64,000 nt of DNA from a virus. This document shows positions 2,662-61,599 of the stretch, in pieces. Location of the stretch: the IMG/VR virus record IMGVR_UViG_3300024272_000069. The stretch is one strand, 5' to 3'. Position 1 is the first letter of the stretch; each line of letters begins with the position of its first letter. Both the position numbers and the translations under genes were made by a program. Below the pieces are notes generated by a model, which was not told the DNA's origin, did not search any database, and saw only the letters and a list, made by a program, of their open reading frames with translations.

Positions 2662-2667
2662 AACTTA

Positions 2668-3084: not shown

Positions 3085-3090
3085 AGTTTA

Positions 3091-3610: not shown

Positions 3611-3616
3611 ATTTTC

Positions 3617-13526: not shown

Positions 13527-13529
13527 AAG

Positions 13530-13718: not shown

Positions 13719-13801
13719 TGGTGCCGATGGTGGGATTTGAACCCACACGCTTTAGGCCGCAGATTTTGAGTCTGCTGTGTCTGCCGTTCCACCACACCGG
13801 C
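13719..13801 (-). tRNA. tRNA-Leu (anticodon CAA), long variable arm, CCA encoded
   Basis: GCCGGTG...GCAGA-CTCAAAA-TCTGC-GGCCTAAAGCGT-GTGGGTTCAAATCCCAC-CATCGGC-ACCA. Confidence 0.85.
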
Positions 13802-26854: not shown

Positions 26855-26856
26855 TT

Positions 26857-33108: not shown

Positions 33109-33124
33109 TTTGGAGGTAAATATT

Positions 33125-34156
33125 ATGGATATGACATTACAACAGCTACATGACTGTGCGATGGGTCGTAATATTCCAGCCGAGTTCGCTAACCAGAACG
33201 TTGATTACGAATCCGCCCTTCGCGATGAAATTAAGAAACTCGTAGGTACCTATTCCCTCTATCGCAAGAATAAGTACGAGTTATTTGATCTACTCCAGCA
33301 GAATGCTGAAGAGATTCTCCCACGCAAGGTTCTTGACCTAATTGGTTCTTTTGCTGAGGTTGCTCAGTATGGTAATAATGATCGTCTAAGCTTCAAGGTA
33401 AAGCGTGGCGCACAGCGCGGCAAGCAGTTCGTTACCCGTGCTACTGAGTCCGGTGTCTACGAGACCTTCCGTCTCGATTACGACTACATGGAACTCACCA
33501 GCCACACCATCGGAGGCGCTGGTATCATTGATTTCGAGCGCTACCTCGATGGTCTTGAGGACATCGCTGAGATCTATGATATTATCCTTGATGGTATGAT
33601 GACCGCTATCTTCCGTGACATTCAGGGCTGTCTAGCTGCTTCTTGGAATGATACTGGCCGTCCAGCCAAGAATAAGGCTTCTGCTAATACTTTCGACTGG
33701 CAGAAGATGAGTCAGCTCGTTCAGGTTGTAAGTGCATATGGCGCTCCAGTTATCTACTGCTCCGCTCTATTCGCTGCTACCATGCTAAATGTTGTTGCTA
33801 CTCCAGATGGTTGCAAGGTTTCTGATAAGGAAATCGACGAGATTCGTGAGTATGGCTACATTGGTAAGTTTGCTGGTGCTCCAGTTGTCGTTATGCCAAA
33901 TTCCTTCGAGGATGAGACTAACGAGAAGCTAGTATTCGACCCACGTTTTGCTTATGTAATTCCAGCTGGCAAGGAGAAGATCGTTAAGGTTGCTCTAGTT
34001 GGCCAGACCATCATCGACGAGTGGAAGAACACCGATCGTTCCCTCGAGATTCAGGGTTACAAGAAGCTCGGCGTCGGCATTGTTGCCGCACCACACTATT
34101 GGGGAATCTATTACAACTCCGGCATTGATGCTTGGGGTCATCCAGAAATCGCCTAA
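33125..34156 (+). CDS. major capsid protein candidate (344 aa)
   Basis: Size, position after the scaffold, strong SD GGAGG 8 nt before ATG 33125, high-expression codon usage. Confidence 0.5.
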   Translation: MDMTLQQLHDCAMGRNIPAEFANQNVDYESALRDEIKKLVGTYSLYRKNKYELFDLLQQNAEEILPRKVLDLIGSFAEVAQYGNNDRLSFKVKRGAQRGKQFVTRATESGVYETFRLDYDYMELTSHTIGGAGIIDFERYLDGLEDIAEIYDIILDGMMTAIFRDIQGCLAASWNDTGRPAKNKASANTFDWQKMSQLVQVVSAYGAPVIYCSALFAATMLNVVATPDGCKVSDKEIDEIREYGYIGKFAGAPVVVMPNSFEDETNEKLVFDPRFAYVIPAGKEKIVKVALVGQTIIDEWKNTDRSLEIQGYKKLGVGIVAAPHYWGIYYNSGIDAWGHPEIA

Positions 34157-37587: not shown

Positions 37588-38493
37588 ATGGCTGTAAATA
37601 TTTTTGAGCGCTATGGTATTAAGGAAGTTGCTAACGTATACTTCGAAGCTCTCGCTGACGAACCAAAGGCGGGTATTACCAAGGGCGATATCGTACTATA
37701 CCTAGATACTCTAAAGGTTTCTACTGTTGAGACCACTGCTGAGAACGTTTCTGCTCAGGGTGGTTGGGGCAATCCAAAGCTCGTTACTTGGGATTACGGC
37801 AAGGACATTAACGTTACCCTAGAGGACGCTGTTATTTCTTGGGAAGAGATGCGTATCCTAATGGGTGCGGTTATGAACAAGGCTACCGCTGATAAGCCTG
37901 TTAAGATTCGTAAGAATGCTCAGGTTATTATTGAGAAGCCAGCTGATTGGGCTGCTGCTGAGCTCAAGTATGTACCAGTTGAGGGTGAAACCAACCGTGC
38001 CGGCCTAACCGATAATGGTAAGCATAATCTACCAGAAGCTGGCCTTGCTGGCGTTCCATTTAAGTGGGTTGATATGTCTCGTGGCCTCCGTGGTACTCAG
38101 GCCAATTTTGCTGCTAACGCTCCTGTTGAAGGAGAAGATTATGATAGCGTTGACGAGACTTCTGGTGCATTCCTCGATGAAAACGGTAACGTAGTAACCT
38201 TTAAGGTCCGTGTATTCTGGGAAGATAATGCTACCGCAGAAGCTCAGGGTGCTACCGAGCTCGTCATTTCTCCAGATCGTTATCCAGGTACCTATCGTGT
38301 TGTTGGCGACTCCCTCATTCGTTCCGAGAAGACTGGTATGGACGAGGCCTTCCAGTTCGTTATCAACAAGGCTAAGATGCTATCTGAAGTTACTCTTACC
38401 ATGCAGGCAGAGGGCGATCCTTCTACCTTCAATATGACCCTCAACGTCCTTCGTGACGATGACGGCAACATGATGAGCCTAATTAAGTACTAA
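37588..38493 (+). CDS. major tail protein candidate (301 aa)
   Basis: Strong SD AAGGAGG; highly biased codon usage; followed directly by an intrinsic terminator, as is common for major tail genes; no TAG. Confidence 0.45.
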   Translation: MAVNIFERYGIKEVANVYFEALADEPKAGITKGDIVLYLDTLKVSTVETTAENVSAQGGWGNPKLVTWDYGKDINVTLEDAVISWEEMRILMGAVMNKATADKPVKIRKNAQVIIEKPADWAAAELKYVPVEGETNRAGLTDNGKHNLPEAGLAGVPFKWVDMSRGLRGTQANFAANAPVEGEDYDSVDETSGAFLDENGNVVTFKVRVFWEDNATAEAQGATELVISPDRYPGTYRVVGDSLIRSEKTGMDEAFQFVINKAKMLSEVTLTMQAEGDPSTFNMTLNVLRDDDGNMMSLIKY

Positions 38494-38520
38494 TAAATTG
38501 CTCCTTGTGAGCATTTCCAA

Positions 38521-38548
38521 GGGGAAGCTTCGGCTTCCCCTATTTTTT
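38521..38548 (+). terminator. intrinsic terminator after the major tail gene (GGGGAAGC-ttcg-GCTTCCCC + TATTTTTT)
   Basis: Perfect 8-bp GC stem, tetraloop, T-tract. Confidence 0.75.
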
Positions 38549-38566: not shown

Positions 38567-39382
38567 ATGAATTTTTTACAGGAAATGGGTATAAAAGACT
38601 TAGAACATGTTGTATTAAAGGCTAAACAACGCATGTCTCTGGGACGTAGAACTTACGAACCAGGAGAACCAATTCTTTATTTTGAAAATATTTAGATTGC
38701 AGTATTATCAGAAAACGCACGAATGGTCGCGGCCTAGGGTGGTTATTTAAATCAACCACGGGTTGTGTGGGAAGATAGAGATAATACAACATTTTAGTTT
38801 TCTAATGGCACTTTAAATCAATTGAGTTTAAATATGCTTTTAGAAGCAAATATGTTACATGAAATGAAAGTGTTTGTGCCGCATCATGGTGTCTATGAAT
38901 TAGATGAAGAAGGAAAGCTATGGTTACCATATGAGATAAATAAATCTCGAAAACGTTTTTATTCTATTTTTGAAAGAGAAAATCTTCAAGATAAAATAAC
39001 CCCTATTTCTGAAGAAATTATAGATGGTCAAACTTTAGTAACTTTTGATTCTATATATGAAAATAAAACTATTGTCGCGGATTACTATTTTATCCCAAAA
39101 AATGGCGCAATAACTTATACAATGGACAGGGAACGCAGACCGAACTTATATACTTTGGAAGCGACCTTCTATTTGAAGGATGAAAATGAAGGGCTTCTTC
39201 ATACTGGAATTTTAGAGATGCCTAAAGTTTATATAATGAGTAATATTAACTTGCGTATGGGAGAAAGAGCTGACCCCACTGTGGGCACGTTCCGGATAGT
39301 GGCAATGCCAGATGACTTAGATAATCATGAAGCAACAGTATGTAGAATAACATATTTAGACGAAGATATCTATGGTTTATAA
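38567..39382 (+). CDS. tail assembly chaperone-position protein (~271 aa), 3 in-frame TAG codons
   Basis: SD CCGGAGG; track ORFs 38498 and 38822 share a frame and are joined only through TAGs. Confidence 0.45.
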
Positions 39383-39386
39383 TATA

Positions 39387-39419
39387 AGAGCTCCCGTTAA
39401 CGCGGGAGCTCTTTTTTTG
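39387..39419 (+). terminator. intrinsic terminator before the tape measure gene (AGAGCTCCCG-ttaa-CGCGGGAGCTCT + T7)
   Basis: Perfect 12-bp stem and T-tract. Confidence 0.75.
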
Positions 39420-39441
39420 TTATAAGGAGGGAAAAGGAAAT

Positions 39442-42400
39442 ATGGCAGTAAAGATTACAATACCTGTTAATTTTCAAGATAGTGCTTAGTCGTATAAGAA
39501 AATTATAGCTTCTTTGCAGTCTGAATTAAAAAAGGTTAAACCTGGTACTGCGATATATGAAAATATATCATCTTAGTTAAAAAAGGCCAACAGTTTAATT
39601 TTAAAACTGGAAGGAAGTATTGGCTAGGGCGTGGCCTCTCATGCTGAAATTGAAAGAATGATTAAAGATTTTTCTTCTTTACAGACAGTGGTAGAAAGTG
39701 TTAATGATGCCTATACTACAATGTCTATTAAGAATTTAAATATAAATTCTGAAAATTTTGGCAATTTAGCAAAAGATTTAGTTGATGCTGCATCACAATT
39801 AACTAAAGCTAAGAAGGCTTTAACAGATGCCGAAAGCCTTAATATTGGAGAGCTTTTTTAGGGTGATGCTAATATTGGCAAGTTTACTGCAAAACAACTT
39901 ACCAGTAAAGGTAAAAGTTTTTATGATAATTTGGCTGCTCAAATTGAACGTCTTGGAATAAAATCTAATGAAGCAGAACAAGAAATAAAAACTCTTGAAC
40001 AAAGTTTATTAGATTTATAGCAATAGGCTAATAATTTAAAAAGCGATTCTTTAGCAGAATCTGTCACAGGAATTGTTGGAACTGCAGGAAGTAAGACAGC
40101 TAAAAAAGGCCAATTTGTTTCATTGGCGGATGCACAAACAAATTTATTAAACATTACTCAAAATAAATTTTTCACTAAGAAAGGTCTTTTAAAAGCGGGA
40201 GTAAGTCAAGATTAGGTAGAAGATTGGTTAAAAGTTTTTGGTATTTCAGATGAATCAATTGCAAAAATTCTTGAAACCAGTAAAGATCGAATTGAACGTT
40301 TACGTCAAGCCATTAATACTGAATTTACCAATACTAAAAAAAATGAATTAACCATTAAATATCGCGATGCCGCAGCAGAATCTGTTCAACGATAGGCTGT
40401 TGAAAGACAAATTGCAGAAGTTAATGCAAATTTAGCAACTGCTCGTTCTACTGCAAAAGATTATGGTGGAGAATTAAAAGGTATCCAAGAACAATTTAAT
40501 TTATTAAAAGATAAATTAATTAAACGTGGTGTTCTTGGAGCCACTGAAGGAGAAGCTGGAGATTTATAGAAATAGATTGATGCTATTGAATAGCAAATGG
40601 CTTCTTTACAATCAGCTATTGTAGCACAAGGACCGAGGGCGGAGCATAATTTACCAGATACTCCAAGTAGAGAAGCAACTGATTACGTTTTTGATGCTGA
40701 ACGTAATGCTCAACAATTTAAAGATAATTTAAAATCGGCCATTGCTCATTGGCTAAGTGCTTAGCAAATTATTACAATGGTCAAAGAGGGTATTCGTCAA
40801 GCTTGGACAGATATTCAAGGTCTTGATAAGGCAATGACGAATATTGCAGTAGTTACAGATATGTCGGTATCTGACCTTTGGGGAAAAATTAACGATTATA
40901 TGGCAATTGCCCAAGAATATGGTGTAACTACTCAAGGTGTTTATGAAGTTTCTTAGCTCTATTATCAACAAGGTTTAAATACTAATGAGGTAATGGAAGC
41001 AACTACAGAAACTCTTAAAATGGCTCGTATCGCAGGTATGGACTATGCTGAAGCCGCTGATGCAATGACTGTAGCAATTCGTGCATTTAAGATGGAAATG
41101 TCTGATGCATAGATAATCACTGATGTTTATTCTAAAGTTGCAGCAGTTACGGCATCTGATAGCCAAGAACTTGCTATTGCTATGAGTAAGACAGCTTCTT
41201 CTGCTGAAAGTGTAGGAAGTAGTTTTGAAAATACCACTGCTATGTTAGCTGTTATGATTGAAACTACTCGTGAATCTGCTCAAAACTTAGGTAGCGCGTT
41301 AAAGTCTATTATTTCTCGTTATGGTGAAATGAAAACCGGTCTTACTATTGACAGTGAGGGCGAAGCAATTGACTACAATAAAGTAGATACTGCTTTACAA
41401 TCTGTAGGTATTTCTATTAAGGATGCTCAAGGTCAATTCCGTGATTTTGATGATGTAATTTTCGAACTTTCTAAAAAGTGGGATAGCCTTGATAAAAATA
41501 CTCAACGTTACATTGCTACAATTATGGCAGGTAACCGTCAACAGTCCCGTTTCATTGCTTTGGTTGATAACTGGGAACGTTTAGAGGAAGTAAGCGCAGC
41601 AGCATATGATAGTGAGGATGCGGGTTTATTACAATATGCTAAAACACTCGATAGTCTTGAAACTAAATTAAATGCTCTTTCTACAAGTTTTTAGCAATTT
41701 TATATGAGTATAATTAATGGTGATACTTTTAAAGGTGCCATTGATTTTATTACTAAATTACTAGACGGATTAAATAAGATTGGCTCTTGGACTTCAATTT
41801 TTAATATAGCTCTTTTAGCACAGAGTTTAAAAACAGTTGGAACTCTTTTAGTTAATGGTTTTTCTGAACCAATGTCTAAAGTTATTTCAGTTTATAGATA
41901 GCGTTTTGATGAAATAACAAATTTAGCTTTTATTAAAGGTAGGGAAGCAGGAGAAGCACATTATAAAGGTTTTCTTACTGCCACCGATAAAACCATACCA
42001 AATTCTATTCCTACATAGACTTCTATACCAATACCTTCGACAAAAATTGATTGGTCTTAGGGTATTGGAAAAGGATTAATTAATTGGATTAAAAAAAATC
42101 CAGCAAAATTTAGTTTGGGTGCTTCTGCCGTAGGAAGTCTTGCCACTATAGCAGGTACTAAAACGGCTGAAAAAAATTAGAGAGCTGGTTCACTATTATC
42201 AATGCTTGGTAGTTCCGCGTCTGGGGCTAGCATGGGAATGTCAATTGCTGGTCTTAAGGGAGCACTTGTAGGAGCTATTGCTGGAGCATTAGCTAATCTT
42301 CCTGCCGTAATAAATAGTTTCGAATTAGACACAATTCTACAAGAAAAAATAGATAAAGCTAAGGAAGTTTTTGATGATGCTGAAATTGTAAGAGCTACGA

Positions 42401-45400
42401 AAAAAGAAGAAGCTCGTAATTTAGCCGCGACAATTGATAATTTAAAAAAATTACAACAAGCACGCTATTCTAGTGAAGAGGCTGAAAAAGCTTTTATTGA
42501 AGCTTCTAATGCCGCATTTGAATAGTTTCCTCAATTAACCGCCACTTTTGATGAAACTGGTAATGCAATTGTAGACGTAATTTCTAAATCTTCTAATGCA
42601 GAATATTTATTAATGAAAGCTCGTCAACAATCAGCAAATGCGACCTTAGATGCAGCTGAGAAAGAGGGTTATTTAAGAACTCAAGAAGAGAAATAGTCTA
42701 AAAATGAATATGCACGTTTTTATACTACTGATGTTGCTTCAAGACAATTTTATGATACATTATATGGTAATTTAAGTTTTGCAGATAGAGAAGTTATTAG
42801 TTTTGATGCTAATAAATATCGTGAAACCAATGTTTATTCAATGATTAAAGGCTACATTGAAGAAATTTATTAGGCATATGGTACAGAAGATATACGTAGT
42901 ATTAATTTAATTAATGCTCTTAAAAAATCCTTAAAAAGTAGATATAATGTTGATTTAACTAATAGTAATGATATTTGGTCTGATTTTGAAGGGATAATAG
43001 CTGAAGCTAGAAAAGCTTGGACTACTGACTAGAGTCAAATAGATTCAAATAATGCTTCAATTATTTCTAGTTACTTAACTCAATTAGATTATGAAATTGA
43101 TCCAACTCAAAGCGAAAGTTGGAAAACCTTATAGGGCGTAAATGACTATTTTGAAAAATATATTATTGATAAGGTTACAACTGCGGAAGAGTTATTTACT
43201 ATTGATGAAAAAAATAATAAAAAAATATTAAATGAACAAGGTAAAGCTGCAATTTAGAAAGCTTATAATGACTTTACAAAATAGATTACTGAAGTATAGA
43301 CATATTTAAAGAAAAATTTACAAACTGATGAATATGAAAAAGTTATTAAAGATATACAAAGTAAAAAAGTTTCTCCTAAATTAATTTAGGAAAGTTTAAA
43401 CAAGATTTTTAATAATTAGATTCCAAAGGTAATTTAGCAATACTTAGATTCTTATAGTAAAGAAATAGAAGAACAAGCCAAGTATATTGCACAGTATGCT
43501 ATTACAAATCTTCCTACACTTTTTGAATGGACTGATGAAGAAAACTTAACCGAAATTTTTACAAATCAAGCCGGTTATTCAAGTGGTATTTCTAATGTAA
43601 TTAAAGATGTTGGAAATCTTGTTGATTCTGGAACAATTGACACTTTATCAGGTTAGGAATGGATTAAAGCATATATTGATATTTTTGATTCTATTGATAC
43701 AAATACAAGTTTAACAGAAAAATAGATACATGAAGCAAAAGCTATTCTTACAAATGAGTCTTCTGATCTTTTTAGTATTAGTGGTTTATTTGATATAGTA
43801 ACTGCTTTAAAAGATATTGGTATTAGTCCAGAATCAATTGGTTTAAATAATTTAAACGCACTGTCTAATAATTTTAATACAGAATTTGCTTCTTTATCAG
43901 AGAAAATTGGTAAAGGACTGGAGTCTCTTACTAAAGTATTAAAAAATGCTGCTGATGGTTTTGATACTGAAACTGCATCTAACTTAGCAAAATAGTTAAA
44001 TACAACTTTAAATGATACTAGTAAATTCGAATTTATTGACGGTAAGTGGTTTATAAAAGATATAAAAGATATTGAAATTGCTCTTGAAAAAACATATTCA
44101 GGATTACGCTCCAACTTAGAAACTTCGCTAGAAGAGGCAAAAACTGTATTATCTTCCACTGATGAAAATAATGCAATAAAAAAACAAAGTTTAATTGATT
44201 CTAATTTTGATATTGCATTGCAATGGGCTTTAGCATAGGGTGCAAGTGAAGATGTTTTAAAAAATCTACCAAAAGAAACTTTAGTTGAAATTTATCTAAC
44301 TAAACAATATGAAGGTATTGTAGCAGCTTATGATTAGGAAAAGGCATGGTTATTAGAATAGGCTACCTATAATTCTGAGGTTGCTTCTTATGCTCGTGAC
44401 TTACTAGGTGGAGAAGAGGACCAACGTATTAGAGAATCTTGGGATATTATTAAGAATACTGGTTTAAACGGTTATAAAGCTACTGATGTTGCAAAAATTA
44501 CAAAAGATTTAAAATTGCCGTCTGAAGCTTTCATCGCTAATGGTGATGGAACTTGGTAGCTTGATTTAACTAAATTAAATGATATTCCAAAAGATGTTCA
44601 TAATGCTATTTTAGCTAGTATAGATAATGAGACAGAATCCGCCATTAGAGCCATCAAATCTCTTGGTAGTGAAATGACTGAAGGAGCAAATCCAGGTATT
44701 TATGCCGAAGCTTTTTCTCATTATGTTGGAGAATATGGTTATGACGCAGCTGAACTTTATATTCCACAGTTTATTAAAGCTGCGGCAGGTGGATAGACAA
44801 ATATTCAAGAACATTTAAAAAAGCTTATTGCAGATGAACTTACTGCTAAAGGTGAAACAGTTTCAGGAATTAACGATCCTAAAGTAATTAAAGTATATAA
44901 TGAATTAATTGCTGGTTATAATGATGGTATTAATAATAATATAACGCGTTTACTAGAATTATCTCAAAAATCCATTAAAGGAACCTTAACAGAAGCTGAA
45001 GAATTAGAACTAAAAGACTTACAACTTGATAATAAGGAATACGCCGAAACACTTAAAAAAATCATTTCTGATGAAACTTTAAAGATAGCTGAAAAAGCTG
45101 CTGCACTAGTTACTGCTGCAGTTTAGGCTTATTTAAATGGTGAGGTTTCTTGGGACGAGGCTGAAGCTACGCTTGAAGAAACTTATTTAGGCATGCTAAG
45201 CCGCAATCGTAAAAAGCAAACCGGTACTGATGAAAATGCAGAACATGTTTCTTCTGAGGATCTTGAAGAAATTGCTAACGCTGGTGGTGTCTATAGTGAA
45301 CAAGCAATATCTGCCCTACTTGCTATGGCTGGTGGAGAAGGTATTACTGTTACAGAAGAGACTCTTAATGAAGTCATAAAATGGGATGAAGTAAAGAAAG

Positions 45401-48400
45401 GATGGGTCTTTGCAGCAGGCAAAGGACTTGAAGATCTTTTAGGAGCAGAAATCCCAGAATATATCAAAAAAGCTGTTGATACCAGTGAAAATGTTAAGGA
45501 TTTAAATAATAAAGTAAATGCGGAAAATACTGCAAATGCAATTATTGATTCTTTTACAAATCTCTATACCAATGCCGAAGAAGCTACTTTAGAGGGTATT
45601 AAATCACTATATGACAGTATTTATGGTGAAAATGCTTTTGCTAATTCTGGTGAAACTGCTAAATGGCAGGCAGCAATTTAGGCGGCGAAAAATGGTAATG
45701 AAGAACTATTACAAAGTCATTTAGAAGATTTAATTAAAGAAGCTCAATCTCAAGGAAAAATTGTTGATGCTAATGCTTTATCACAAAAAGTTCGTAATTT
45801 AGTTTCTTCTGCAATAGATTCGGAATTTAGACAAGCTTCTGATACTATCGCATCTCTTGGAGCCTCTAAAGCCGCTTCTCGTGGAAATAGTGATCGAGGT
45901 ATCTATGCAGATGCTTTTTCTGCTTTAATTGAAAAAAATGAATGGGATAGACAAGAAACTGATAAAAAAATAAGTGGTTTTATTACTGGTGCAGCATCTG
46001 GAGATAGTTATAGTAGTTTAGCATTAAAGTAGTATATTGCCGCCAATTTAAGAGCTATTGATCCAGAAAATTATAAAAATGTTTATATTGATGATCCAGA
46101 AGTAATTCGTCAATATAATTTATTAATGGCTGGTTATAAAGACGGCATCACCAGTAATACTCTACGCTATCTTGAACTAGCTCAAAAACAAGCAGAAGGA
46201 ACTATCACAGAAACGGAAAAACAAGAGATGGCCGATCTTGTTCCCCAAAGTGATCAGTGGGTAGTTGATTTAGTAAATACTCTAGCACAAGGTGGAACAG
46301 ATTCATTAAGTAATCTTGCTCTAATTATTTCTAATGCTTTAGCAAATGGAATTGACTGGTCTGAGGTTGAAGATGAGGTTCAAAATTAGGCTGAAGGACT
46401 TTTCAATACTGAAAAATTAAAGAGTGTTGGTATTAATCCTGGTGATAGCATTACTAAAGGTAAGCTTTTAAGCTCTATCGTTGATTCCGCGGGTGTATAT
46501 GGAGAAGAATTATATACTAATTTATATAATTATGCTACTGAAAATGGTTTAAACTTTAACGAAGAACTTTTTAAACAAGCATTTAACTATAGCTCCATTG
46601 CAGGTGGTTTTGTTGCTACAACTTCTGAAGGAATTAGTACATTATTCTCAGGCTGGGGCTAGGATTTTGTAAAAGCTTTTACATTGGGAAGTAATTCTTT
46701 TAACGTTGAAGAAGCTATTCGTTTTGATGATTTAGGTACTTCTGTTACCGAAACTATAAGTGGTTTTTATAGCAATATTGCAGAAATTTCTCTTGGAGAT
46801 TTAGCTAATCTATACGAATCCATTCATGGACAAGATACTTTTGCGCAAAGCGGATTAGTTGATGATTATTAGGCCGCGATTCGTGAAGCAAAAAGAGGTA
46901 ATGTTGACCTCCTCACCGATTTTACTAACAATCTAATAAAAGAAGCTAAAGCAAAAGGAATTGAAGTAGACACTACTGCAATTCAAAATGCCATGTAGGA
47001 TGCAGCACTTGCTATGATGGCAAGTATTGTTCAAGCTGTTGAAGCTGGTATTGGCGGAACAATGACTAATGCTGATTACACTCAACTTTTAAAAGATATC
47101 GGTGTTAATTAGTTTGAATCAGATGGTTCCGTTTCTCAGGACTGGGAACGTTGGTAGAATATGGTCTATTCGACCAACGAAGGATTAAAGTTCACTAAAC
47201 AAGGCTTGTTGGATATTTATGGAGTAGTTGCTAGTCGTAACGCGATGGCTTCTCAAGGTATCCTTGAGATGATTGCAGAAGATTATCGTGAATATGATAA
47301 TTTAAGTTCTACTCTTGCACATATTAAAGAGCTTCGTGATTTAAAAGACAAAGCTGATCCAACAAAACGTAAACAGTATGAACAAGAACTTGCAGTTGCA
47401 GAAAAAATTGCTCGTATTCGTTCTTAGGATTCAGATAGCTTTAACTTCATGGATCGTGCAATTCCAGATGAAATTCAGTCTCCTCTTAATGTATGGCAAA
47501 ATGCAGCAGATGCAGCAAGTGCTTTACAAGATGCTAAGAAAAATGGCTACATGGGAGCCGAAGATTTCTACCGAATTGTAACTACTGCTAGTGAATATAT
47601 GACCGCGGCAGGACAAGAATTCTCTGTCGCTGGCATGACTTATGAAGATTTAATTTCTAAGGCAACAAGCTCTCTTGCTACTGCTAATGGAAATCTTGTA
47701 GTCGATTTCTCTAAGTTTGGTGTTGATTTTGCCGGCGGTATTGATGATATGGCTGGCGGTCTTGAAAAAGGATTAAAAGCTTTAGCTGAAGAATAGATTA
47801 AGATGCTAGATGGCTTAATTGCCATGCTAGAAACTCTAAAGACTATTGAAGAGTTAAAACTTGATCAAGATGGAAACGGTATTGATCTTGGTGAGATTTT
47901 TACTATTACAGATGATGGTAGCATTAGTGAATTTACCGACACCTTTACTGAATGGTGGAAGAGATTACAAACTGCTGTTGGAGAAATCCGCTTTGATAAT
48001 GGTAAATTTAATCTTGGCGAAGCTTTAGCTAGAGGAATTGTTACTCCAAATCTTTTACAAGATTGTAGTAATGAAATATAGCGTTTATTAGCTAGTGAAA
48101 ATATTGATCCATATACTGTAGATACTCAAATACAAGATATTATTCGTAAATATTTTGGAGAAGGAGTTACCTTTGGAATTCCTTTTAATACCTAGTTAAG
48201 TATTAATAGTGATGGTACATATGCCTTAAATGGTAAAGGTAAATATCCCACTCGCGAGGCCGCTCTAGAAGCCTATTGTAGAAGTATTAGTCCTGGAGCA
48301 TGGACATATACTGAAGAAGGAGTTGTTCATACTGTTAAATTTAAGCAGTATGCAGAAGCAAATACTACTGTTACAATAGATGAATCTAGTGTAGGAACAA

Positions 48401-51400
48401 GTTATACTCTTGGATCTAAAACTTTTACTGATGAAGCTTCTTTCTTAGCTGCATTAACTTCCGGTTCTAATGAAGAGGGTGCAGCGAAAGTTGGAGAAAC
48501 TGTTACTACGGCCGATGGTGGAAAATATACTGTTAAATATAACGAAGCACTAAAAATTAATTATTTAGTTGCCGAGGATGATGCAAGTAAATTTTTAATT
48601 AATGGTGAAAGTACAGGATATGCTTCTATCGACGAATATGTTAAAGCATAGCTAGAAGCTCAGTAGAACGCAGATGGAGAAGGCACCTCTTACGACGTAA
48701 CCACTACTCTCGGTATTGATGCCTCTTAGGCTGATAAAGAACTTGAACGGGTAAATAAAGAGTTAGATGCTTTAGATAAAAAAGCAGTATGGCCAAAAGT
48801 ATCTATTAATGATAGTACAAAGAGTGGTATTGATGCTATTAATGCAAAACTACTCGCTCTAACTCGTACTCGTTATGTAGATGTCGTTGTTCGTGAAAAG
48901 GCTGAAGAAACTCCAGAAGTTTATGGACCCGTACAACAACAACAACAATCAACTATTCCACCCGGTGGTAATTCTGGTCGATGGATTGATCAATTTATGG
49001 CTAAGGGTAATGTAGCTCTTGCCAAAGGCACCCTTATGGGAGAACTTGGTCCAGAATTATATGTTCAAAATGGTTCTTATCATATTGCCGGTTCCAATGG
49101 TCCAGAATTTGTTGATCTGGCAGATGACGCGATTGTTTTCAATCATCTACAAACTAAACGTATTTTAAACACTGGTCATTCTTTTGGACGCGGAACTCCT
49201 GTAACAAACGAGCGTCGTGCGGTTGCTTGGGCAACTGGTAATGTAACCGGTCCCGCACTCGCTGGTGGTATTGATAGTGCAATTGAACAACTTAAAACAG
49301 CTCGTGAGTTCTGGAAAGGATTACTTAACCAGCTTTCTCTTTCTGAGCTTATGTCTGGCTCTGGCGGTCACAAAGGTGGCGGTTCTGGTAACAGTATTAA
49401 AGCAGTTACTGAAGAACTACAAGAATGGTATAACCTTTCTCGCCAAATTGCTGATATTGAGCAAGATATTAACAATCTTCTTGCTGAACGTGAGAATATT
49501 GAATGGTCTAATGGTGAAGCTTATTTAAAGAGTTTGCGTGAACAACAAAAGCTTTTAAATAAGCAAATGGCTACCCAACAAGCACTTCTTGATTATCAAG
49601 AACTTCAGCTTCAACGCCAAGCAGATCATATTAATCAAAATCGTATTTGGTCTCAATTCTTAACTGTTGGCGAAGATGGATTACTTCAATATATCGAAGG
49701 TAATGAAACTAATGGTGGTAAGGGTGCCCTTCAAGTTCTACAAGAACTTAACCAAATGTCTGGTGAAGAACAAACTGCTTATTTAAAGCGTATTGGTTAT
49801 TCTTATACTAATAATGATGGTAAAAAGCTTGAGGGACAAGAACTTGTAGAGCAATTCTTCCAAGAGTTGCAAGATCAGATTGACCAGTATGATTCTCTTT
49901 ATGATACCGTTCATGGAACAGAGGAAACTCTTGAAAATCTTCGTACTCAGATTGAAGATATTAATGAATAGATTAAAGAGAACCAAATGGATCTTGAAGA
50001 GGCTGTTTTCGATATTATTGTTGAAGCTTGGGAAAAGCAAATTGAAGAAATGGAAGAGCAAGCGGACTTAATTAAGGAAGCCAACGAAGCCTATATTAAT
50101 GGTTTAAACGAGGCTCTTTCCGCGGAACGTCAGATGTATGATGATAATCAGAAAATTGCTGATCGTGAACAACTTCAACGTCAACTTTCTTTACTTCGTC
50201 GTAGTGGAGGTTCTGCTTCTGAAATTGCTGATTTAGAAGAGCAATTAAATGATATGCTAAAGGATGAATACTTTAGCAATCAAGAGCGAATGATTGAGGA
50301 TATTCAATAGGCAAATGACATTCAAGTACAACAACTTGAAACTCAAATTCGTCTATAGGAAGAGGCCCTAGAATATCAAAAAGAGAATGGTGTAATTTGG
50401 ACTCAAGTTTATGAAGTTCTTTCTAAGTCTCGTAATGAGATTCTTGCTTTTATGCAAGGTAATTCTACTGAGTTCTTTAGCCAATCCTTATTACAACAAG
50501 AGCAAATGCTTACCGATTGGGCGCATAAAATTGGTATTTATAAGGAAGATTAGAAATACCAAAATTATGCTAATCATGGACGTGAAACTCTTTGGGACAA
50601 TGGATAGGCTTGGAATCTTGGAGATATGAGTAAGTATCAGTCTACTTACAATAATCTCACTGAGGAAGAAAAAAACACAATTCGTGATCAATTTACTTCT
50701 GTTTATGCAAATGCTCGTCTTGATGGCAAGAGTCATGAGGAAGCTGCAGCATTGGCCGCGGCGGAAGTTTCTAAGACTTTGAAGCGTAAAAAAGATGCCG
50801 CGGATGCAGAAGATCATACTCCACCAACTACTGATCCAAATCCACAAAATCCTGGCGGAAATAATGACGATGATGACGATGAGGATGACGGAGGAGGAGG
50901 CTCTCAACAATAGCAATAGCAAACTAGCCCTACTCACTGGCGATTTACTTATAACGGAAAAGTCCGTAAATGCTTTAATCAGAAGTCCAGTGCGGAAAGT
51001 GCAATGAAAGAGATGTATGAGGCAGACAAGGCCGCTTTATTACGTACCGCTAGTGATCGTCAAGAAATTGATGCAGCTAATGCAACTGCACAAAGACGTT
51101 ATAATACAGCAAAAAATTCTTTAAAATCTGGTAAACACAGTTCTGGTTATCGTCATGGTGGATTAGTTGATTTTACCGGTCCTACAATGGTTCATGGTAG
51201 TACCACCAAACCAGAGGGTTTCTTAAATGCTGAATAGACTGCAATTATTAGAGAGGGTCTAGAACTATCAGGTGAACTAAGTTCGTTATCTAATTTAAGA
51301 AACTTGGTAGATGTTTTGAAGAGAAATGTAAAAAATACTGTTGGCGCTGTTAGTGAAATTAATAATATTAATATTGCTTCTGGAGCTGTTGTTGTATAGG

Positions 51401-51510
51401 TACAATAGCTTAATGATAAATATGATATTGATGATGTAGCAACAGATATCATGAATCGTATGTATGCCATTGGTAATAAATCCACTAATCGTGGAGTAAG
51501 TCGGAGGTAA
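39442..51510 (+). CDS. tape measure protein, ~4022 aa, containing many in-frame TAG sense codons (dozens)
   Basis: SD AAGGAGG; all 14 track fragments between 39631 and 51237 are in frame 1; gaps checked by hand contain only TAG; first TAA at 51508; TP901-type core (ATIMAGNRQQSRFIALVDNWERL); ELGPE motif near the C-terminus. Confidence 0.7.
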
Positions 51511-51516
51511 TTAATT

Positions 51517-53073
51517 ATGGGTATTCAAGTTACTGAATTAACCCAAGGAAAAAATTGCCACGAAAAGGAGTTCATCGACTTTGAATTCGATGGAAAACAT
51601 GTAAGTGAGTTTGGCATGGTCGCCGTCGCGGACGGCGACCGCCACTCCTTTGATGCCGCTCCAACTTTTGAAGATGAAACTTCTTAGGTGAACGGTATAG
51701 ATGGGCAATATTATTGGGGCACACATTTTGGCTCAAAAAAGATGACTTTTTCTTTGGCAACAGATGGAATGACTGAAGCACAAGTAAATGCTTTTAAATT
51801 ACATTTTAAGCCGGGTAAGTATGGTAAATTTATTGAAGATAAACTTTCTAGTCGTTATGGATATGCTCGTATTAGTTAGGTAACAACTTTTAATACTGTG
51901 CCTTTCCGCGTTGAAAAAAAGATTATGGGACAAACTATTTATATTAATGAATATAAAGGAGATTGTCGTATTACTTTTGAATTTGATGATCCTCATATGA
52001 AAGCTACTATGAATCTAATTGAAGATTTCGCAGAGGATAATGAATTAAAACTTCGTGCTATGTATACGAACGGAACTCCATATTCAGCAAGCTGGAATAG
52101 TAATAATAATTATGTTTGTTTTGTGGGTAGCAATGAAAAAATTCTAACTAAGGGTGCTGTGTCACCTTTAACCAGCGGCGGTCTGAGTAGCCAAAGTGCT
52201 CTTACTTATTATAATCCAGCAACCAGTAAAACTAAAGCTATTATTCAAATGAAATTCCAACCAACCTTTACTGCTGATGGAGAGACCACCGTATCTTTCC
52301 CAATTTATTTTCATGAAATTAGAGATGATATTAATAGCAATACTTTTCCTTATAATCGTATATTAACTACAGTTTCAGTTGATAAAGATATTGTACGTAC
52401 ATCTTGTGACTATCCAAAAGAATTTAAATATACTACCCCCAATGTGATTTAGCAAATTAATCACGCTATTGAGCTTGCGGCAAGTTTTTACATGAAATCT
52501 GCTACCGGCCCTGCGTTGGATTTTGAAGAACTTTTACGCTTAGAAATCGTTGACTCTAAAGTTATGGCTTGGGCTGCGGCGGTTTTAAGAATTATAAAAA
52601 CACGAGATGCTTTTTATAATCGTAATACTGGTAATTTTAATTCGGGAACTTTATCTGTTAATTGCTCGTCAATTGGCGCGGGAACTCAGGGATTAAATTG
52701 GTGGCAATATTTTAATGTATATATGTTATATATGTTAGCCAATTGTGCAGATCCAGAAAAATTCCATCTTGAAGGAGAAGCTGAAGGTACTTGGACTTTC
52801 AATCCTTACACAATTACTTTTAATGGAGAAGAGAATCGTACATATATGACTTATTCTTATAATAGAATTATCAATATATTAGAAAAAATTTCCGTAGCAG
52901 AAGAAAATTGTGGAGACATGATTCTTTCAGAATACCTTAACTTAGATGGAGGAGATGTACTAAATGATGATGGTACAATTGCTTCTTGTCATCATATGAA
53001 GTTTATAAAAGGTGAGGGTACTACCCACACTGCAAATTGGGTATCTTTAGTATATACACCAACTTATTTCTAA
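51517..53073 (+). CDS. distal tail protein (Dit) with a C-terminal extension (~518 aa), 3 in-frame TAG
   Basis: Directly downstream of the tape measure gene with SD GGAGG; track ORFs 51688, 51898 and 52492 share frame 1 and are separated only by TAGs (51685, 51877, 52450). Confidence 0.5.
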
Positions 53074-53091
53074 TAACATGGAGGGATAATT

Positions 53092-56000
53092 TTGAGCGTA
53101 CGTACTGTATTATCTCAAAAATCTCGCCCATACAAGATTGAAGTCTATGGACTGTAGGACGACTTTATAGGAACCCTACAGTCCTTTAATGACTCTTTTA
53201 TTGGGCAAATTGTTTCGCCAGAAATCAAATTTTCTGATGATGGCACACAAACTTTTACTTGCTCAATTCCTAAATTTTATATTGATCCTGAAACGAATTT
53301 AAAAATTGAGAATCCTCGCTGGACTGATATAAATAATGGAGTATTGGCGGAAAATACCAGAGTATTAAAAATATTTCTGGATTATGGAAATGAGATAAAG
53401 GTTTATCCCTTTATTGTGGATAAAATAACTGATAAACGAGATTCTCATTTTTCAGTTTATCGTGAAGTTGAAGCCAGTGGAATGGCCTTCGCGGAATTAG
53501 GTAAAACTGGTTATAAATTAGAATTAAATAGCCATACAATTGAATCTGTATAGGAAGAAGATATTGAGATTCTTCCTTATATAGATTTCTGGTTGGATTA
53601 TGTTTTTCCTAATGAAAAAGATGAAAACGGAAAAGTTATAAAATGGCTTACTCCTTGGTGCTATGAGATTAGAATGGACTGGTCTCATTATGCAGTAGAG
53701 GGTCGCCTTTCTAATAAAATTTATGAAGATTCTTATGTTACTTCTTGGGGAGTAAGAGATGCTTTAACTGATGAATACGGTAACATCACTACTGCTGCAG
53801 GTCTAGAGGCATAGGGAGTAGAATCTGGTGCGGAAAAAGCTCGTTATATTGATTGTGCCAATAGTAATAAATACAATATCACTCAAGATATTTCCGAAGC
53901 TTTTGAAGTATTTTGTCAATATGAATATAAGTGTGATTCACGCGGCAAGTTTATTCATGAATATGTTGACGAAAATGGTAATGTATGGACTGGCCGCAAG
54001 GCAGTATTTTACAATCGAGCAATTAAAACTGATAACCCTATTGTAATTGATTATAAGAAGAACCTTTCTACGATTACTCGTACTTGTGATAGTTCTGAAA
54101 TTTATACAAAGCTATATGTAACTCCAATTGAGTCTTCAACAATGGAGACTGGTTATATTTCTATTGCAGATACTCCTATTAATCCAACATTGGATGAGTT
54201 CATTTTAAATTTTGATTATCTTTATAATATAGGTTCTATTTCTCAATATTAGTTAAATTATGTAAAAACTTATGAAGTTGAGATACATAAATTAAATACA
54301 GAATTAATTAATTTAGCTCCATAGATTGAAGACTTAACGATTCGTATTAATAATCTTAAAGCTACAAAAACCAATGCTGAAAATGAAAAAACGTCTGCTG
54401 AACAAACCTTGTAGCAATATCAAACTTTACGAGATAGTGAGGTAACTAATACTCCAATTAGAAAAAATAAGGATAATCCAATGTCAATTATCTTTGTTGA
54501 AGATGGAGATATTAAAAAGGCGGCTTTACGTTAGATAGGTATTGCACCTGCGACAATTGTTGGTTATAGTAATTTTTCTTATAGTAAAAGAATTTTTGAT
54601 TATAATGATATTATTACTGTAAATCAATTGGGGTCTACTACTGCAAATGATACAAGTTATTATTTAGTATTAGATGAGTTTGGTTATCCAACATATATTT
54701 ATACCTCTAAAAATAATTCAGATTTTGAAGTAGATAATAGTCCAATTATTTATTTAGAATTGGAATATAGTCCTAAAAACGCTTATGTTGATATTTGTAA
54801 TCAACTAGAATAGCGTATTATAGGAAAAGCCGCTACAGTAGAAACTTTAGAAGTTTCAATCAATGATTTATAGACACAATTAGATGAATTAGAATTAGAT
54901 CAAAAAGAACTTTTAGATAAGAAAGAAATCTTAAATCAAAAGCTTGAACTTACTCTTGGTCCTGCACTTCGCGAGGGTTATTGGACTCCTGACAGTTATG
55001 AAGATCCTGGCCAAGCCCGAAAAGCTGAGTTAGTTATGGTTCCTACTGCCGCGCAAACTGGAGTGGTTTTAACTTTTGATAATACTGCTTTTGAGGGAGA
55101 AGAGTTAAATTATTATTATGCTAATATTGATGATGTAGCTAATGATAATAAAACTTATTATCCTTATATTGATATTTCTAGTATTTATGAAGATTGGTCA
55201 GATAAGAATATTGAAAATTTAACTTTACACTTTTTAAATCCAGAATGTAAATATACTGTTGGTAATAATAAAATTGCCGCAGGTAATTATTTTGTAATTT
55301 ATAATGGTCTTACAAAATATTATTTCAATATTCCGAATGACTTAACAGAAGGAACCGTTGTTGAAATTCTTATTAATGATAGTTCAAAGCCTTATATTAA
55401 AATAGGTAATACAACAATATCTACCAATGAAACAGAATTAGAGGGAGCAACAAATTTAACCTCTATTTTTGAAGGTATCGGTAATTATTTGGGTGAACGT
55501 TTAGTTTATAATAATGCCGGTTTTGTTTTTGGCTTCTTAAAAGAAAATAATATTGTTACTCCTATTTTACTTCTAAATAATTTAGATATAGAATATTCAC
55601 GTTATAAGAAAGTCTAGTATTCTTTTAATGGTAATAATCGTGGAGTAATTACTAACAATTTACGTATTGACATTCCACCTGCCAATGCAATTTTCTGTTA
55701 TCCTCGTATTATTATTTATGATTCTAATGTAAATTATGATTCAGATAATTTAAAGATAATTCCTTATACAGGAACCTTAACAGAGGAAACATAGAAGTTA
55801 GAAAAGTTTTAGGACTATACCATTTTAATAAGAGGCGGCAAGCCACATTTTACATTAAAGATTACTGAGAACAATAATTTAAATAAAATTTTAAGTTATT
55901 CTTATCATATAGAATATCAAATTTCTCGTGCCAATGAAATGCTTTATTTAGATGCTAAAAATGTTGCACGTGAAAATTCTTATCCAAAATATTCTTATAA

Positions 56001-61586: not shown

Positions 61587-61599
61587 AGGAGAAAAAAGG

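What the first reader, a model, noticed from the sequence alone, without database searches (positions are those of the whole stretch)
39442..51510. Exceptionally long (~12 kb, ~4000 aa) tape measure gene
A single frame runs from ATG 39442 to TAA 51508, interrupted only by TAG. It contains a TP901-type tape measure core and an ELGPE-containing C-terminal region. At ~0.15 nm per residue this would specify a tail several hundred nm long, or the ORF is a fusion of the tape measure with additional tail-tip or enzymatic domains. In either case it is among the largest tape measure genes known.
Basis: partly seen in the sequence, partly recalled or inferred. Interest (0 to 1): 0.6.

Follow-up and report, generated by a model that had tools for sequence, protein, structure and literature searches.

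The report
Giant amber-recoded phage tape measure gene
This is a real, single 4,022-codon tail tape measure gene of an uncultivated phage that reads the TAG stop codon as glutamine; it is very long next to cultured phages, but ordinary within its own large metagenomic family, whose members reach 5,744 residues.

Summary
Window 39442-51510 (+) is one frame of 4,022 codons with 64 in-frame TAG and no TAA or TGA before the terminal TAA. TAG reads as glutamine: it aligns mostly with Gln in relatives and sits inside a CAA-CAA-TAG-CAA-TAG-CAA run. The product is a tape measure protein (TMP): it has a TP901-type core at aa 461-780 and lies in an SPbeta-like tail module.

The "fusion with enzymes" idea is not supported. 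No transglycosylase, M23 peptidase or other enzymatic domain was found. The ~830 aa from ELGPE to the end is a conserved, mostly helical module. It ends hundreds of giant homologues, so it is an integral part of the protein.

"Among the largest known" is true only against cultured phages (Tsamsa 3,123 aa, phAss-1 ~3,150, P23-45 5,002). Of the 150 best family representatives, 33 are longer than 4,022 aa and five exceed 5,002.

The predicted tail is about 570-600 nm, which is an inference.

By-products: a variable slot near the C-terminus that carries cell-wall-binding domains in relatives; up to three group I-type insertions in the TMP core of relatives (none here); TAG absent from the capsid and tube genes; no suppressor tRNA found.

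The parts
39442..51510 (+). Tape measure protein gene: 4,022 codons plus TAA, with 64 in-frame TAG read as Gln
   Evidence: phrog_4211 'tail length tape measure protein' matches at 5.7e-50 over aa 271-2291.
39386..39413 (+). Terminator-like hairpin (12-bp stem, T-run) between the upstream gene and the TMP gene; probable attenuator
   Evidence: sequence shown.
39424..39430 (+). Shine-Dalgarno AAGGAGG, 11 nt upstream of ATG 39442
   Evidence: Sequence read.
40822..41781 (+). TP901-type TMP core (aa 461-780; Pfam PhageMin_Tail aa 490-694)
   Evidence: both above the curated cut-offs.
41797..42321 (+). Two hydrophobic, Gly/Ala-rich segments (aa 786-804 and aa 932-960) after the core; candidate membrane-active segments
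   Evidence: Hydropathy scan. The function is inferred.
44578..46983 (+). Ancient tandem duplication of a ~400-aa block (aa ~1713-2113 and ~2111-2514, 22-41% identity)
48196..48648 (+). Non-coiled beta/alpha island (aa 2919-3069) with three beta-hairpin + helix motifs (YALNGKGKYPTREAALEAY and similar)
   Evidence: The AF2 model is single-sequence with mean pLDDT 56, so only the secondary structure is used.
49000..49311 (+). ELGPE module (aa ~3187-3290: GELGPELYV...NGPEFVDL..AIVFNHLQT); start of the conserved C-terminal module
   Evidence: The motif lies mostly 770-900 aa (range about 355-1,530) before the C-terminus in almost all family members where it was found.
49399..50751 (+). Long helical region (aa ~3320-3770), including the near-invariant LQRQLxLLRRSGGSASEI segment
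   Evidence: AF2 of homologue P0001 (76% identical): helices up to 120 aa, pLDDT 80-94; alignment.
50749..51156 (+). Variable slot (aa ~3770-3905): acidic/poly-Gln linker plus a small beta-hairpin and two-helix domain (THWRFTYNGK...). Relatives carry SH3_3, PG_binding_1, CW_7, choline-binding or Ig-like domains here
51157..51507 (+). Conserved C-terminal domain (aa 3906-4022: GGLVDFTGP..VHG..KPE.FLNAEQT ... NRGVSRR)
37588..38493 (+). Tail tube protein (YomU_Tube-like), with no TAG codons
   Evidence: phrog_2729 at 4e-49. 67% identical to a gene whose product carries Pfam YomU_Tube in relative L029. Codon counts.
38520..38541 (+). Terminator-like hairpin directly after the tube gene
38567..39382 (+). 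Paralogue of the tube protein, immediately upstream of the TMP gene
   Evidence: phrog_2729 at 7.5e-15; syntenic 268-aa gene in L029.
51517..53073 (+). Probable distal tail protein (Dit position), 518 aa
   Evidence: Weak Sipho_tail match, E 0.0044, below the Pfam cut-off. Syntenic 503-aa gene after the TMP gene in L029, 48% identical.
53092..58596 (+). Large tail protein, 1,834 aa, 20 in-frame TAG
   Evidence: phrog_3267 'tail protein' at 1e-17.

Best explanation
The ORF is one gene for a 4,022-residue tail tape measure protein. It belongs to an uncultivated siphovirus with an SPbeta-like tail module that decodes TAG as glutamine (genetic code 15).

Shown: the gene sits in the late operon after the tube gene and a tube paralogue. 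Two terminator-like hairpins precede it, and it has its own strong ribosome-binding site. It cannot be translated past codon 16 unless TAG is read as sense.

Inferred from what is known about TMPs: an oligomer of the protein fills the tube lumen. Its conserved C-terminal domain docks in the Dit/Tal hub where tube polymerisation begins. Polymerisation stops at the N-terminal end, so protein length sets tail length. That gives about 570 nm using the Tsamsa ratio of 0.141 nm per residue, or about 600 nm at 0.15 nm per residue.

Shown: the length has grown by block duplication (one ~400-aa duplication is visible) and by free divergence of the middle third.

Inferred: at infection the protein leaves C-terminus first. 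The variable slot near that end carries cell-wall-binding domains in relatives and would hold the ejected protein in the thick Gram-positive wall. The hydrophobic Gly/Ala-rich segments would help form the membrane passage. The 64 TAG codons, together with the two upstream hairpins, delay TMP synthesis until the code switch and keep it scarce.
For: Frame and stops.

TAG = Gln. Window TAGs align most often with Q in relatives (77 cases), and relatives' TAGs align most often with window Q (51 cases). TAG is interleaved with CAA in a poly-Gln run at aa 3822-3827. Early minus-strand genes hold 1 TAG in 3,302 codons. All 18 late genes examined end in TAA or TGA.

TMP identity. PF10145 at 4e-29, TIGR01760 at 1.4e-29, and seven PHROG TMP families (six at E ≤1.2e-07), the best at 5.7e-50 covering aa 271-2291. 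The flanking genes match, in the same order, those of relative L029, whose gene products carry Pfam YomW, YomV_2nd and YomU_Tube upstream of its TMP.

Single-polypeptide architecture. L003 has a 3,979-codon homologue with 81 TAG. P0067 is 4,322 aa with 85 TAG and no TAA/TGA. A profile of the C-terminal module finds 550 proteins at E ≤1e-30, and it lies at the extreme C-terminus of proteins of 3,000-5,744 aa that also carry the core near aa 400-560.

No enzyme domain: and 94 for two larger homologues. The C-terminal module is mostly long helices. Its fold matches are other phage TMPs or tail proteins and coiled-coil proteins.

Length calibration: Tsamsa has a 3,123-aa TMP and a 440-nm tail (PMC3903500).

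Duplication. Hairpins.
Against: No virion has been seen, so the length-to-tail relation is untested here.

No tRNA with a CTA anticodon occurs in the window or in the tRNA arrays of 11 relatives. How TAG is decoded is therefore not shown; only 64 kb of a genome of probably ~130-180 kb is in hand.

Non-helical parts (aa ~2900-3300 and the slot domain) may not contribute 0.15 nm per residue.

The structure of the middle 2,000 aa could not be predicted, because AF2 input had to be TAG-free. A novel folded domain there is not excluded.

Tsamsa TMP runs as 280- and 100-kDa bands (PMC3903500), so processing of such proteins is possible.

The cell-wall-binding role of the window's own slot domain is unproven. 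Its fold was not identified.
Confidence: 0.8

Rival explanations
1. Only the part up to the ELGPE module (~3,200 aa) measures the tail. The last ~830 aa is a tail-tip, baseplate or central-fibre component that happens to be fused, or is cleaved off, so the tail would be about 450-480 nm.
For: ELGPE-like 'GPE' motifs normally lie ~100 aa from the end of a TMP, as in phAss-1 at 3056 of 3150. Here a second such motif lies ~100 aa from the end (aa 3923) and the first lies 820 aa before it, which suggests an added or duplicated C-terminal unit. Some proteins share only the ~100-aa ELGPE module (P0050-P0055). Tsamsa TMP is found in two bands (PMC3903500).
Against: ELGPE, the helical region, the slot and the C-terminal domain appear in that order, mostly at a similar distance from the end, in nearly all of ~130 family representatives, always within the TMP polypeptide. 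The region is mostly very long helices like the rest of a TMP. No separate gene for it was seen in any relative.
Confidence: 0.25
2. The giant size reflects a cargo domain fused to the tape measure, as in Thermus phage P23-45, whose TMP carries a virion RNA polymerase. The domain would be delivered into the host.
For: There is precedent in PMC10770324. About 2,000 aa (aa ~1100-3100) have no family assignment beyond PHROG TMP profiles. Region 2515-3180 has no detectable homologues at E ≤1e-3 in one search. A beta/alpha island exists at aa 2919-3069.
Against: There is no Pfam, NCBIfam, PHROG or PDB-sequence match to any enzyme. The middle region is the least conserved part among relatives, ~22% identity, whereas an enzyme would be expected to be conserved. 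It contains a plain block duplication. Larger homologues also show only PhageMin_Tail.
Confidence: 0.07
3. TAG is a true stop here, and the region is a decayed or fragmented set of small genes, or an assembly artefact.
For: Under the standard code the span breaks into many short ORFs. No suppressor tRNA was found.
Against: There are zero TAA/TGA in 4,022 codons, against 162 and 550 in the other frames. Homology to TMPs runs across the TAG positions. TAG aligns with Gln and sits inside a poly-Gln run. The same pattern occurs in independent contigs. A published clade has the same code (PMC10607447; bioRxiv 10.1101/2021.08.26.457843).
Confidence: 0.01

Closest known systems
Tape measure proteins of giant Bacillota siphoviruses (Bacillus phage Tsamsa gp226, 3,123 aa; SPbeta-like, Lactococcus 949-group and Enterococcus ~140-kb phages)
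   Same: They share the TP901-type core (25-33% identity over ~400 aa). The portal is related. The tail module carries YomU/V/W-type genes. All are very long TMPs, and in Tsamsa the TMP is matched by a 440-nm tail (PMC3903500). The C-terminal model resembles the TMPs of Bacillus phage vB_BcoS-136 and Lactococcus AM9 and WRP3.
   Different: This TMP is about 900 aa longer than Tsamsa's. Only the core aligns by sequence. It is written in code 15 with 64 TAG. It lacks the SLT and M23 domains that I recall for SPbeta YomI/CwlP (from memory, not tested against that protein).
phAss-1 / proposed Phassvirus group (NCBI 'Caudoviricetes code 15 clade'), TMP 3,149-3,209 aa
   Same: These are gut phages of 130+ kb with TAG read as Gln. 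Their TMP is fragmented under the standard code and was already reported as very long (PMC10607447). I recomputed it at 3,150 codons with 110 TAG.
   Different: The relationship is distant: portal 28% and TMP core 30% identity. Gene order differs. phAss-1 encodes three tRNA-Sup(CTA), whereas none was found here. The window TMP is ~870 aa longer and has the long post-ELGPE module.
Thermus phage P23-45 / P74-26 TMP (5,002 aa; tail close to 1 um)
   Same: A giant single-polypeptide TMP that sets an extremely long tail (PMC10770324, PMC10034513).
   Different: The N-terminal part of P23-45 TMP is an RNA polymerase. No such domain, or any other enzymatic domain, is detected here. The host lineage is unrelated and the phage uses the standard code.
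TMPs with embedded cell-wall hydrolase motifs (mycobacteriophage TM4, PMC1796659; T5 pb2, from my own knowledge)
   Same: A cell-wall-directed module is embedded in the tape measure, presumably acting when the protein is ejected.
   Different: Here and in relatives the modules are binding domains (SH3_3, PG_binding_1, CW_7, choline-binding), not hydrolases. They occupy one fixed slot ~120-190 aa from the C-terminus.

Membership tests
Phage tail tape measure protein, TP901 family (TIGR01760 / Pfam PF10145 PhageMin_Tail) | Match to the family's core-region model above the curated cut-off | tested here: met
   TIGR01760: 103.2 bits against a cut-off of 28.8, aa 461-780. PF10145: 102.3 bits against 33.2, aa 490-694.
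Phage tail tape measure protein, TP901 family (TIGR01760 / Pfam PF10145 PhageMin_Tail) | Position in a siphovirus tail module, downstream of the tube gene and upstream of the distal tail and tail-tip genes | tested here: met
   The tube gene (YomU_Tube-like) is at 37588-38493 and its paralogue at 38567-39382. The TMP gene follows, then a 518-aa protein with a weak Sipho_tail match, then large tail proteins. No classical frameshifted chaperone pair was identified.
Phage tail tape measure protein, TP901 family (TIGR01760 / Pfam PF10145 PhageMin_Tail) | Predominantly alpha-helical, elongated protein with hydrophobic or Gly-rich segments | tested here: inconclusive
   The C-terminal 825 aa of a 76%-identical homologue are mostly long helices. 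Proline is 1.3% overall, and two hydrophobic segments follow the core. The middle ~2,000 aa could not be modelled.
Phage tail tape measure protein, TP901 family (TIGR01760 / Pfam PF10145 PhageMin_Tail) | Protein length determines tail length | not testable with these tools
   This needs electron microscopy or deletion mutants. The only calibration comes from Tsamsa (3,123 aa and 440 nm; PMC3903500).
Stop-codon-recoded phage, genetic code 15 (TAG = Gln) | In-frame TAG in conserved genes, aligned with Gln in homologues; only TAA/TGA used as stops | tested here: met
Stop-codon-recoded phage, genetic code 15 (TAG = Gln) | Early genes free of the recoded codon and late genes rich in it | tested here: met
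   Early minus-strand ORFs hold 1 TAG in 3,302 codons. The late block holds 123 TAG. The capsid, scaffold and tube genes hold none.
Stop-codon-recoded phage, genetic code 15 (TAG = Gln) | Phage-encoded suppressor tRNA (CTA anticodon) | tested here: not met
   None in the 64-kb window, none in 14 TMP loci, and none in the tRNA arrays of 11 relatives. This feature is not obligatory for the class: some recoded phages lack one (PMC10607447). Most of the genome is also unseen.
TMP with fused enzymatic domain (P23-45-type RNA polymerase; SLT, M23 or Rpf-type hydrolase) | A recognisable catalytic domain within the TMP polypeptide | tested here: not met
   Pfam, NCBIfam, PHROG and PDB sequence searches give only the TMP core and coiled-coil noise.
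Metagenomic family of giant TMPs sharing the ELGPE-to-C-terminus module (defined here by profile A2) | TP901 core near aa 400-560, an ELGPE motif typically ~770-900 aa (at most about 1,530 aa) before the end, the LQRQLxxLxRSGGS segment, and a C-terminus ending ...RR | tested here: met
   The window protein has all four features. The family has 550 members at E ≤1e-30, and the architecture was checked in 139 of them.

The most novel reading that the evidence does not exclude
The most novel reading has three parts.

First, the gene represents a large, undescribed family of code-15, SPbeta-like siphoviruses of Gram-positive hosts whose tape measures run from ~3,200 to 5,744 aa. Half-micron to ~0.85-um tails would then be common rather than exceptional, and the P23-45 record would be surpassed.

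Second, these tape measures carry a fixed exchange slot ~120-190 aa from the C-terminus. Different lineages have swapped cell-wall-binding modules into it (SH3b, PG_binding_1, CW_7, choline-binding, Ig-like, or a small beta-hairpin-helix domain). That would make the tape measure itself a host-envelope-specific penetration or host-range determinant.

Third, the heavy TAG load (64-110 per gene) acts as a timing and stoichiometry gate for tail assembly.
Probability: 0.35. Interest if true: 0.55.

Novelty: new member of a known kind. Interest (0 to 1): 0.3.

Why it matters
For annotation: under the standard code this gene breaks into dozens of fragments, so it is a clear test case for code-15-aware gene calling.

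For biology: this single gene is not a surprise. Very long TMPs are known in giant Bacillota siphoviruses, and recoded ones in the phAss-1 group.

What may be worth a specialist's attention is the family behind it. It holds hundreds of TMPs of 3,000-5,700 aa with one conserved C-terminal module and a slot where cell-wall-binding domains are exchanged. If the length rule holds, tails longer than any measured so far should exist in these communities. The slot also offers a testable idea for how a tape measure engages a Gram-positive wall.

The uneven TAG distribution (none in capsid and tube genes, many in the TMP and distal tail genes) and the missing suppressor tRNA bear on how and why such phages switch code.

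Tried and rejected
- Megablast of the 12-kb gene against 50,697 phage records found no match.
- tblastn of the last 1,022 aa against the same records found no match at E ≤1e-3.
- A homologue search with the whole 4,022-aa protein timed out. A search with aa 2515-3180 gave no hit at E ≤1e-3.
- A whole-protein self-BLAST hid the internal repeat. Chopping the protein into 150-aa windows revealed it.
I therefore modelled a 76%-identical database homologue and one TAG-free 151-aa stretch. The second model was low confidence, so I did not use it for fold search.
- Foldseek against PDB gave nothing significant.
- A crude Chou-Fasman-type composition profile did not discriminate regions and is not used as evidence, apart from the low Pro content and the hydrophobic segments.
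- A search for a suppressor tRNA in the window, in 14 TMP loci and in 11 tRNA-array loci found none.
- An Rfam scan of the window found only two tRNAs and no intron.
- I considered and rejected three readings: a pseudogene or fragmented set of genes, an assembly chimera, and an enzymatic fusion. The reasons are given under the rival explanations.
- I suspected from the sequence pattern that the beta-hairpin-helix motif might be SPOR-like. I could not test this and do not claim it.

Full report
**1. The observation**

Window 39442-51510 on the + strand is 12,069 nt. Read from ATG 39442, it has 4,022 sense codons and ends at TAA 51508. The frame holds 64 TAG, no TAA and no TGA, and the previous in-frame TAA is at 39385. 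Over the same span the other two forward frames hold 162 and 550 TAA+TGA. The open frame therefore cannot be chance. Under the standard code the span breaks into many short ORFs.

An AAGGAGG Shine-Dalgarno sequence lies at 39424-39430, 11 nt before the ATG. A 12-bp GC-rich hairpin with a T-run at 39386-39413 lies between the preceding gene and this one.

**2. The genetic code**

When TAG is treated as sense, the + strand from 25.5 kb to the end of the window becomes a tidy late operon. It runs terminase, portal, scaffold-like, capsid-like, head-tail, tube, TMP and large tail proteins. All 18 of these genes end in TAA or TGA.

Three observations show that TAG means glutamine:
- In alignments with 14 related loci, window TAGs pair most often with Q (77 cases, next S 39), and relatives' TAGs pair most often with window Q (51 cases).
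- Inside the TMP a poly-Gln run is spelled CAA CAA TAG CAA TAG CAA.
- The published relatives of this lifestyle use code 15 (PMC10607447; bioRxiv 10.1101/2021.08.26.457843).

TAG use is uneven. Early minus-strand ORFs hold 1 TAG in 3,302 codons. The capsid-like, scaffold-like and tube genes hold none. The TMP holds 64, which is 27% of its Gln codons, and the two next large tail genes hold 20 and 17.

No tRNA with a CTA anticodon is present in the window, which holds only tRNA-Lys and tRNA-Leu. None is present in 14 TMP loci or in the 3-11-tRNA arrays of 11 relatives. How TAG is decoded is therefore not established.

**3. What the protein is**

The TAG-to-Gln translation matches three independent libraries:
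- Pfam PhageMin_Tail at aa 490-694 (4e-29).
- NCBIfam TIGR01760 'tape_meas_TP901' at aa 461-780 (1.4e-29).
- Seven PHROG 'tail length tape measure protein' families. The best is phrog_4211 at 5.7e-50, aligned over aa 271-2291.

No lytic transglycosylase, M23 peptidase or other enzymatic domain appears in Pfam, NCBIfam or PHROGs, or in a sequence search of the PDB.

The neighbours fit a tail module. The gene at 37588-38493 is 67% identical to a gene of relative L029 whose product carries Pfam YomU_Tube. The two genes before it match the YomW- and YomV-annotated genes of L029. A tube paralogue sits between the tube gene and the TMP gene. The 518-aa product downstream has a weak Sipho_tail (Dit) match and a syntenic counterpart in L029. 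So the tail module is of the SPbeta type.

The portal and the TMP core find their nearest cultured relatives at 24-33% identity. These are large siphoviruses of Bacillus (Tsamsa group), Staphylococcus (SPbeta-like), Lactococcus (949 group) and Enterococcus, plus the code-15 gut phage phAss-1.

**4. Anatomy of the 4,022 residues**

- aa 1-460: a Lys/Glu/Gln-rich N-terminal region covered by TMP PHROG profiles.
- aa 461-780: the TP901-type core.
- aa 786-804 and 932-960: hydrophobic, Gly/Ala-rich segments.
- aa ~1100-3100: a poorly conserved middle. Identity to relatives is ~22% where it aligns at all, and one search of aa 2515-3180 found no database homologue. It contains an old tandem duplication of a ~400-aa block, aa 1713-2113 against 2111-2514 at 22-41% identity.
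- aa 2919-3069: a beta/alpha island with three beta-hairpin-plus-helix motifs (low confidence).
- aa ~3187-4022: a conserved C-terminal module.

The C-terminal module has four parts:
- The ELGPE segment (GELGPELYV...NGPEFVDL..AIVFNHLQT).
- About 450 aa of long helices, including the almost invariant LQRQLxLLRRSGGSASEI segment.
- A variable slot at aa ~3770-3905.
- A conserved last domain, aa 3906-4022, which holds a third GPE-like motif (TKPEGFLNAEQT) and ends NRGVSRR.

AlphaFold2 was run on a 76%-identical homologue of aa 3199-4022, with 47 sequences and a mean pLDDT of 71. It gives helices of up to 120 residues at pLDDT 80-94. It also gives a small, confident beta-hairpin and two-helix domain in the slot. 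Foldseek finds nothing significant in the PDB, only coiled-coil proteins. In the viral structure set the significant matches (E ≤0.001) are metagenomic proteins, one named a minor tail protein fragment, and the TMP of Bacillus phage vB_BcoS-136; the TMPs of Lactococcus phages AM9 and WRP3 follow more weakly (E 0.007-0.011).

**5. Is the C-terminal part a fusion?**

No. A profile of the module was searched against 1.84 billion representative proteins. It finds 4,530 proteins at E ≤0.001 and 550 at E ≤1e-30. In the best 150, the module lies at the very C-terminus of proteins that are mostly 3,000-5,700 aa long.

I fetched 139 of these proteins. In 95 the TP901 core is detectable. Those that look complete at the N-terminus have it at aa ~400-560. 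In nearly all, ELGPE lies mostly 770-900 aa (at most about 1,530 aa) before the end, and nearly all end in ...RR.

The close relative P0067 is 4,322 aa. Its gene has 85 in-frame TAG and no TAA or TGA, so it uses code 15 as well. L003 has a 3,979-codon homologue with 81 TAG.

The one-polypeptide layout, with the core followed by a long variable middle and then the module from ELGPE to the C-terminus, is therefore the norm for the family. Two larger members show only PhageMin_Tail in Pfam.

**6. How exceptional is the length?**

Against published phages it is long:
- Tsamsa: 3,123 aa with a 440-nm tail (PMC3903500).
- phAss-1 group: 3,149-3,209 aa (PMC10607447). I recomputed phAss-1 at 3,150 codons with 110 TAG.
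- Gordonia phages: ~9-kb TMP genes and 500-nm tails, called 'among the largest' in 2016 (PMC4919401).
- P23-45: 5,002 aa (PMC10770324), with tails near 1 um in P74-26 (PMC10034513).

Within its own family it is not exceptional. Of the 150 best representatives, 96 are at least 3,000 aa, 33 exceed 4,022 aa and five exceed 5,002 aa. Those five are 5,744, 5,543, 5,406, 5,273 and 5,156 aa. Spliced lengths in the IMG/VR relatives cluster near 3,555-3,600 and 3,960-4,020 aa.

**7. How it most likely works**

Shown: the gene is late. It lies behind two terminator-like hairpins, one at 38520-38541 after the tube gene and one at 39386-39413 after the tube paralogue. It cannot be translated beyond codon 16 without TAG decoding.

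Inferred: the hairpins and the 64 suppressible codons together keep the TMP late and scarce. A few TMP copies are needed per virion, against several hundred tube subunits. Full-length yield falls as e^64, where e is the per-codon read-through efficiency. It is about 53% at 99% efficiency and about 4% at 95%, so decoding must be nearly complete.

Inferred from established TMP biology: the C-terminal domain docks in the Dit/Tal hub, the tube polymerises around the extended protein, and the tail ends where the protein ends. Using the Tsamsa ratio of 0.141 nm per residue gives ~567 nm, and 0.15 nm per residue gives ~603 nm. The figure would be lower if the non-helical parts do not count, or if only the pre-ELGPE part measures (~450-480 nm).

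Shown: length evolves by block duplication and by drift of the middle region.

**8. By-products**

(a) The slot. Homologues carry different domains at the same position, ~120-190 aa from the end. These are SH3_3 (P0003, P0024, P0067), PG_binding_1 (P0025, P0038), CW_7 (P0037), choline-binding repeats (P0042), and an Ig-like domain with or without a small beta-hairpin-helix domain (P0008, P0009, P0011, P0017, P0018). The window, P0001, P0002, P0016 and P0019 carry only the small domain. This points to Gram-positive hosts and to a wall-anchoring role for the ejected TMP end, which is an inference. I found no paper describing such a slot.

(b) Introns. In relatives L005-L015 the TMP core is split into collinear pieces with exact junctions after window residues 511, 545, 606, ~626, 690 and 699. 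The insertions are 180-1,500 nt and the frame changes across them. Several insertions are Rfam group I introns above the gathering score, and the same loci hold more group I introns in upstream structural genes. The window has none.

**9. Verdict**

The enzymatic or tail-tip fusion reading is not supported. The 'among the largest known' claim is true only relative to cultured phages. This is a new member of a known kind: a giant TMP of a large Bacillota-type siphovirus, written in code 15. Its interest lies mainly in the family it opens up.

Noticed in passing
L005-L015 (IMG/VR relatives), e.g. L015 10367-10547, 10731-10987, 11240-11559; L013 8601-9800, 9915-11386, 11645-11936; L006 7303-8421, 8524-10000: The TMP core of relatives is interrupted by one to three insertions of 180-1,500 nt. 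The junctions are exact, after window residues 511, 545, 606, ~626, 690 and 699. Several insertions score as Rfam group I introns, and more group I introns lie in upstream structural genes of the same loci. The window's copy has none of them.
   Followed up: partly
window 50749-51156 (TMP aa ~3770-3905) and homologues P0003, P0024, P0025, P0037, P0038, P0042, P0067: A fixed variable slot lies ~120-190 aa from the TMP C-terminus. In different relatives it holds SH3_3, PG_binding_1, CW_7, choline-binding or Ig-like domains. The window has only a small beta-hairpin and two-helix domain, whose sequence motif also recurs three times at aa 2919-3069.
   Followed up: partly
window 25529-61586 (+), late genes: TAG is absent from the capsid-like (33110-34156), scaffold-like (31122-32543) and tube (37588-38493) genes, which prefer CAG. 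It makes up 27% of Gln codons in the TMP and is frequent in the two large tail genes (20 and 17 TAG). Recoding is concentrated in the TMP and the large distal tail genes, which are presumably low-copy.
   Followed up: partly
window 13451-13801 (-); L018-L028: The window has only tRNA-Lys(ttt) and tRNA-Leu(caa). The homologous regions of 11 relatives hold 3-11 tRNAs. None has a CTA anticodon, so the TAG decoder of this clade was not located.
   Followed up: partly
window 38520-38541 and 39386-39413 (+): Two strong terminator-like hairpins lie in series, one after the tube gene and one after its paralogue, directly upstream of the TMP gene. They probably step down transcription of the TMP and distal tail genes.
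   Followed up: no
window 38567-39382 (+): A diverged paralogue of the tail tube protein (phrog_2729) occupies the position just before the TMP gene, where a chaperone pair is usual. No frameshifted chaperone gene was recognised.
   Followed up: no
P0135 (5,744 aa), P0095 (5,543), P0187 (5,406), P0176 (5,273), P0152 (5,156): These family members are longer than the 5,002-aa P23-45 TMP. By eye P0135 contains large internal block repeats. If they are not assembly artefacts, they predict tails of ~0.8 um or more.
   Followed up: no
window 25529-27789 (+): Two genes upstream of the large terminase encode proteins with CxxC...CxxC motifs, and the second ORF overlaps the long TerL ORF call (27614-29554). 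Their function and the true TerL start were not examined.
   Followed up: no
window 61540-64000 (+): Another TAG-containing open frame of at least 820 codons runs off the end of the window. The distal tail gene set therefore continues beyond the data.
   Followed up: no
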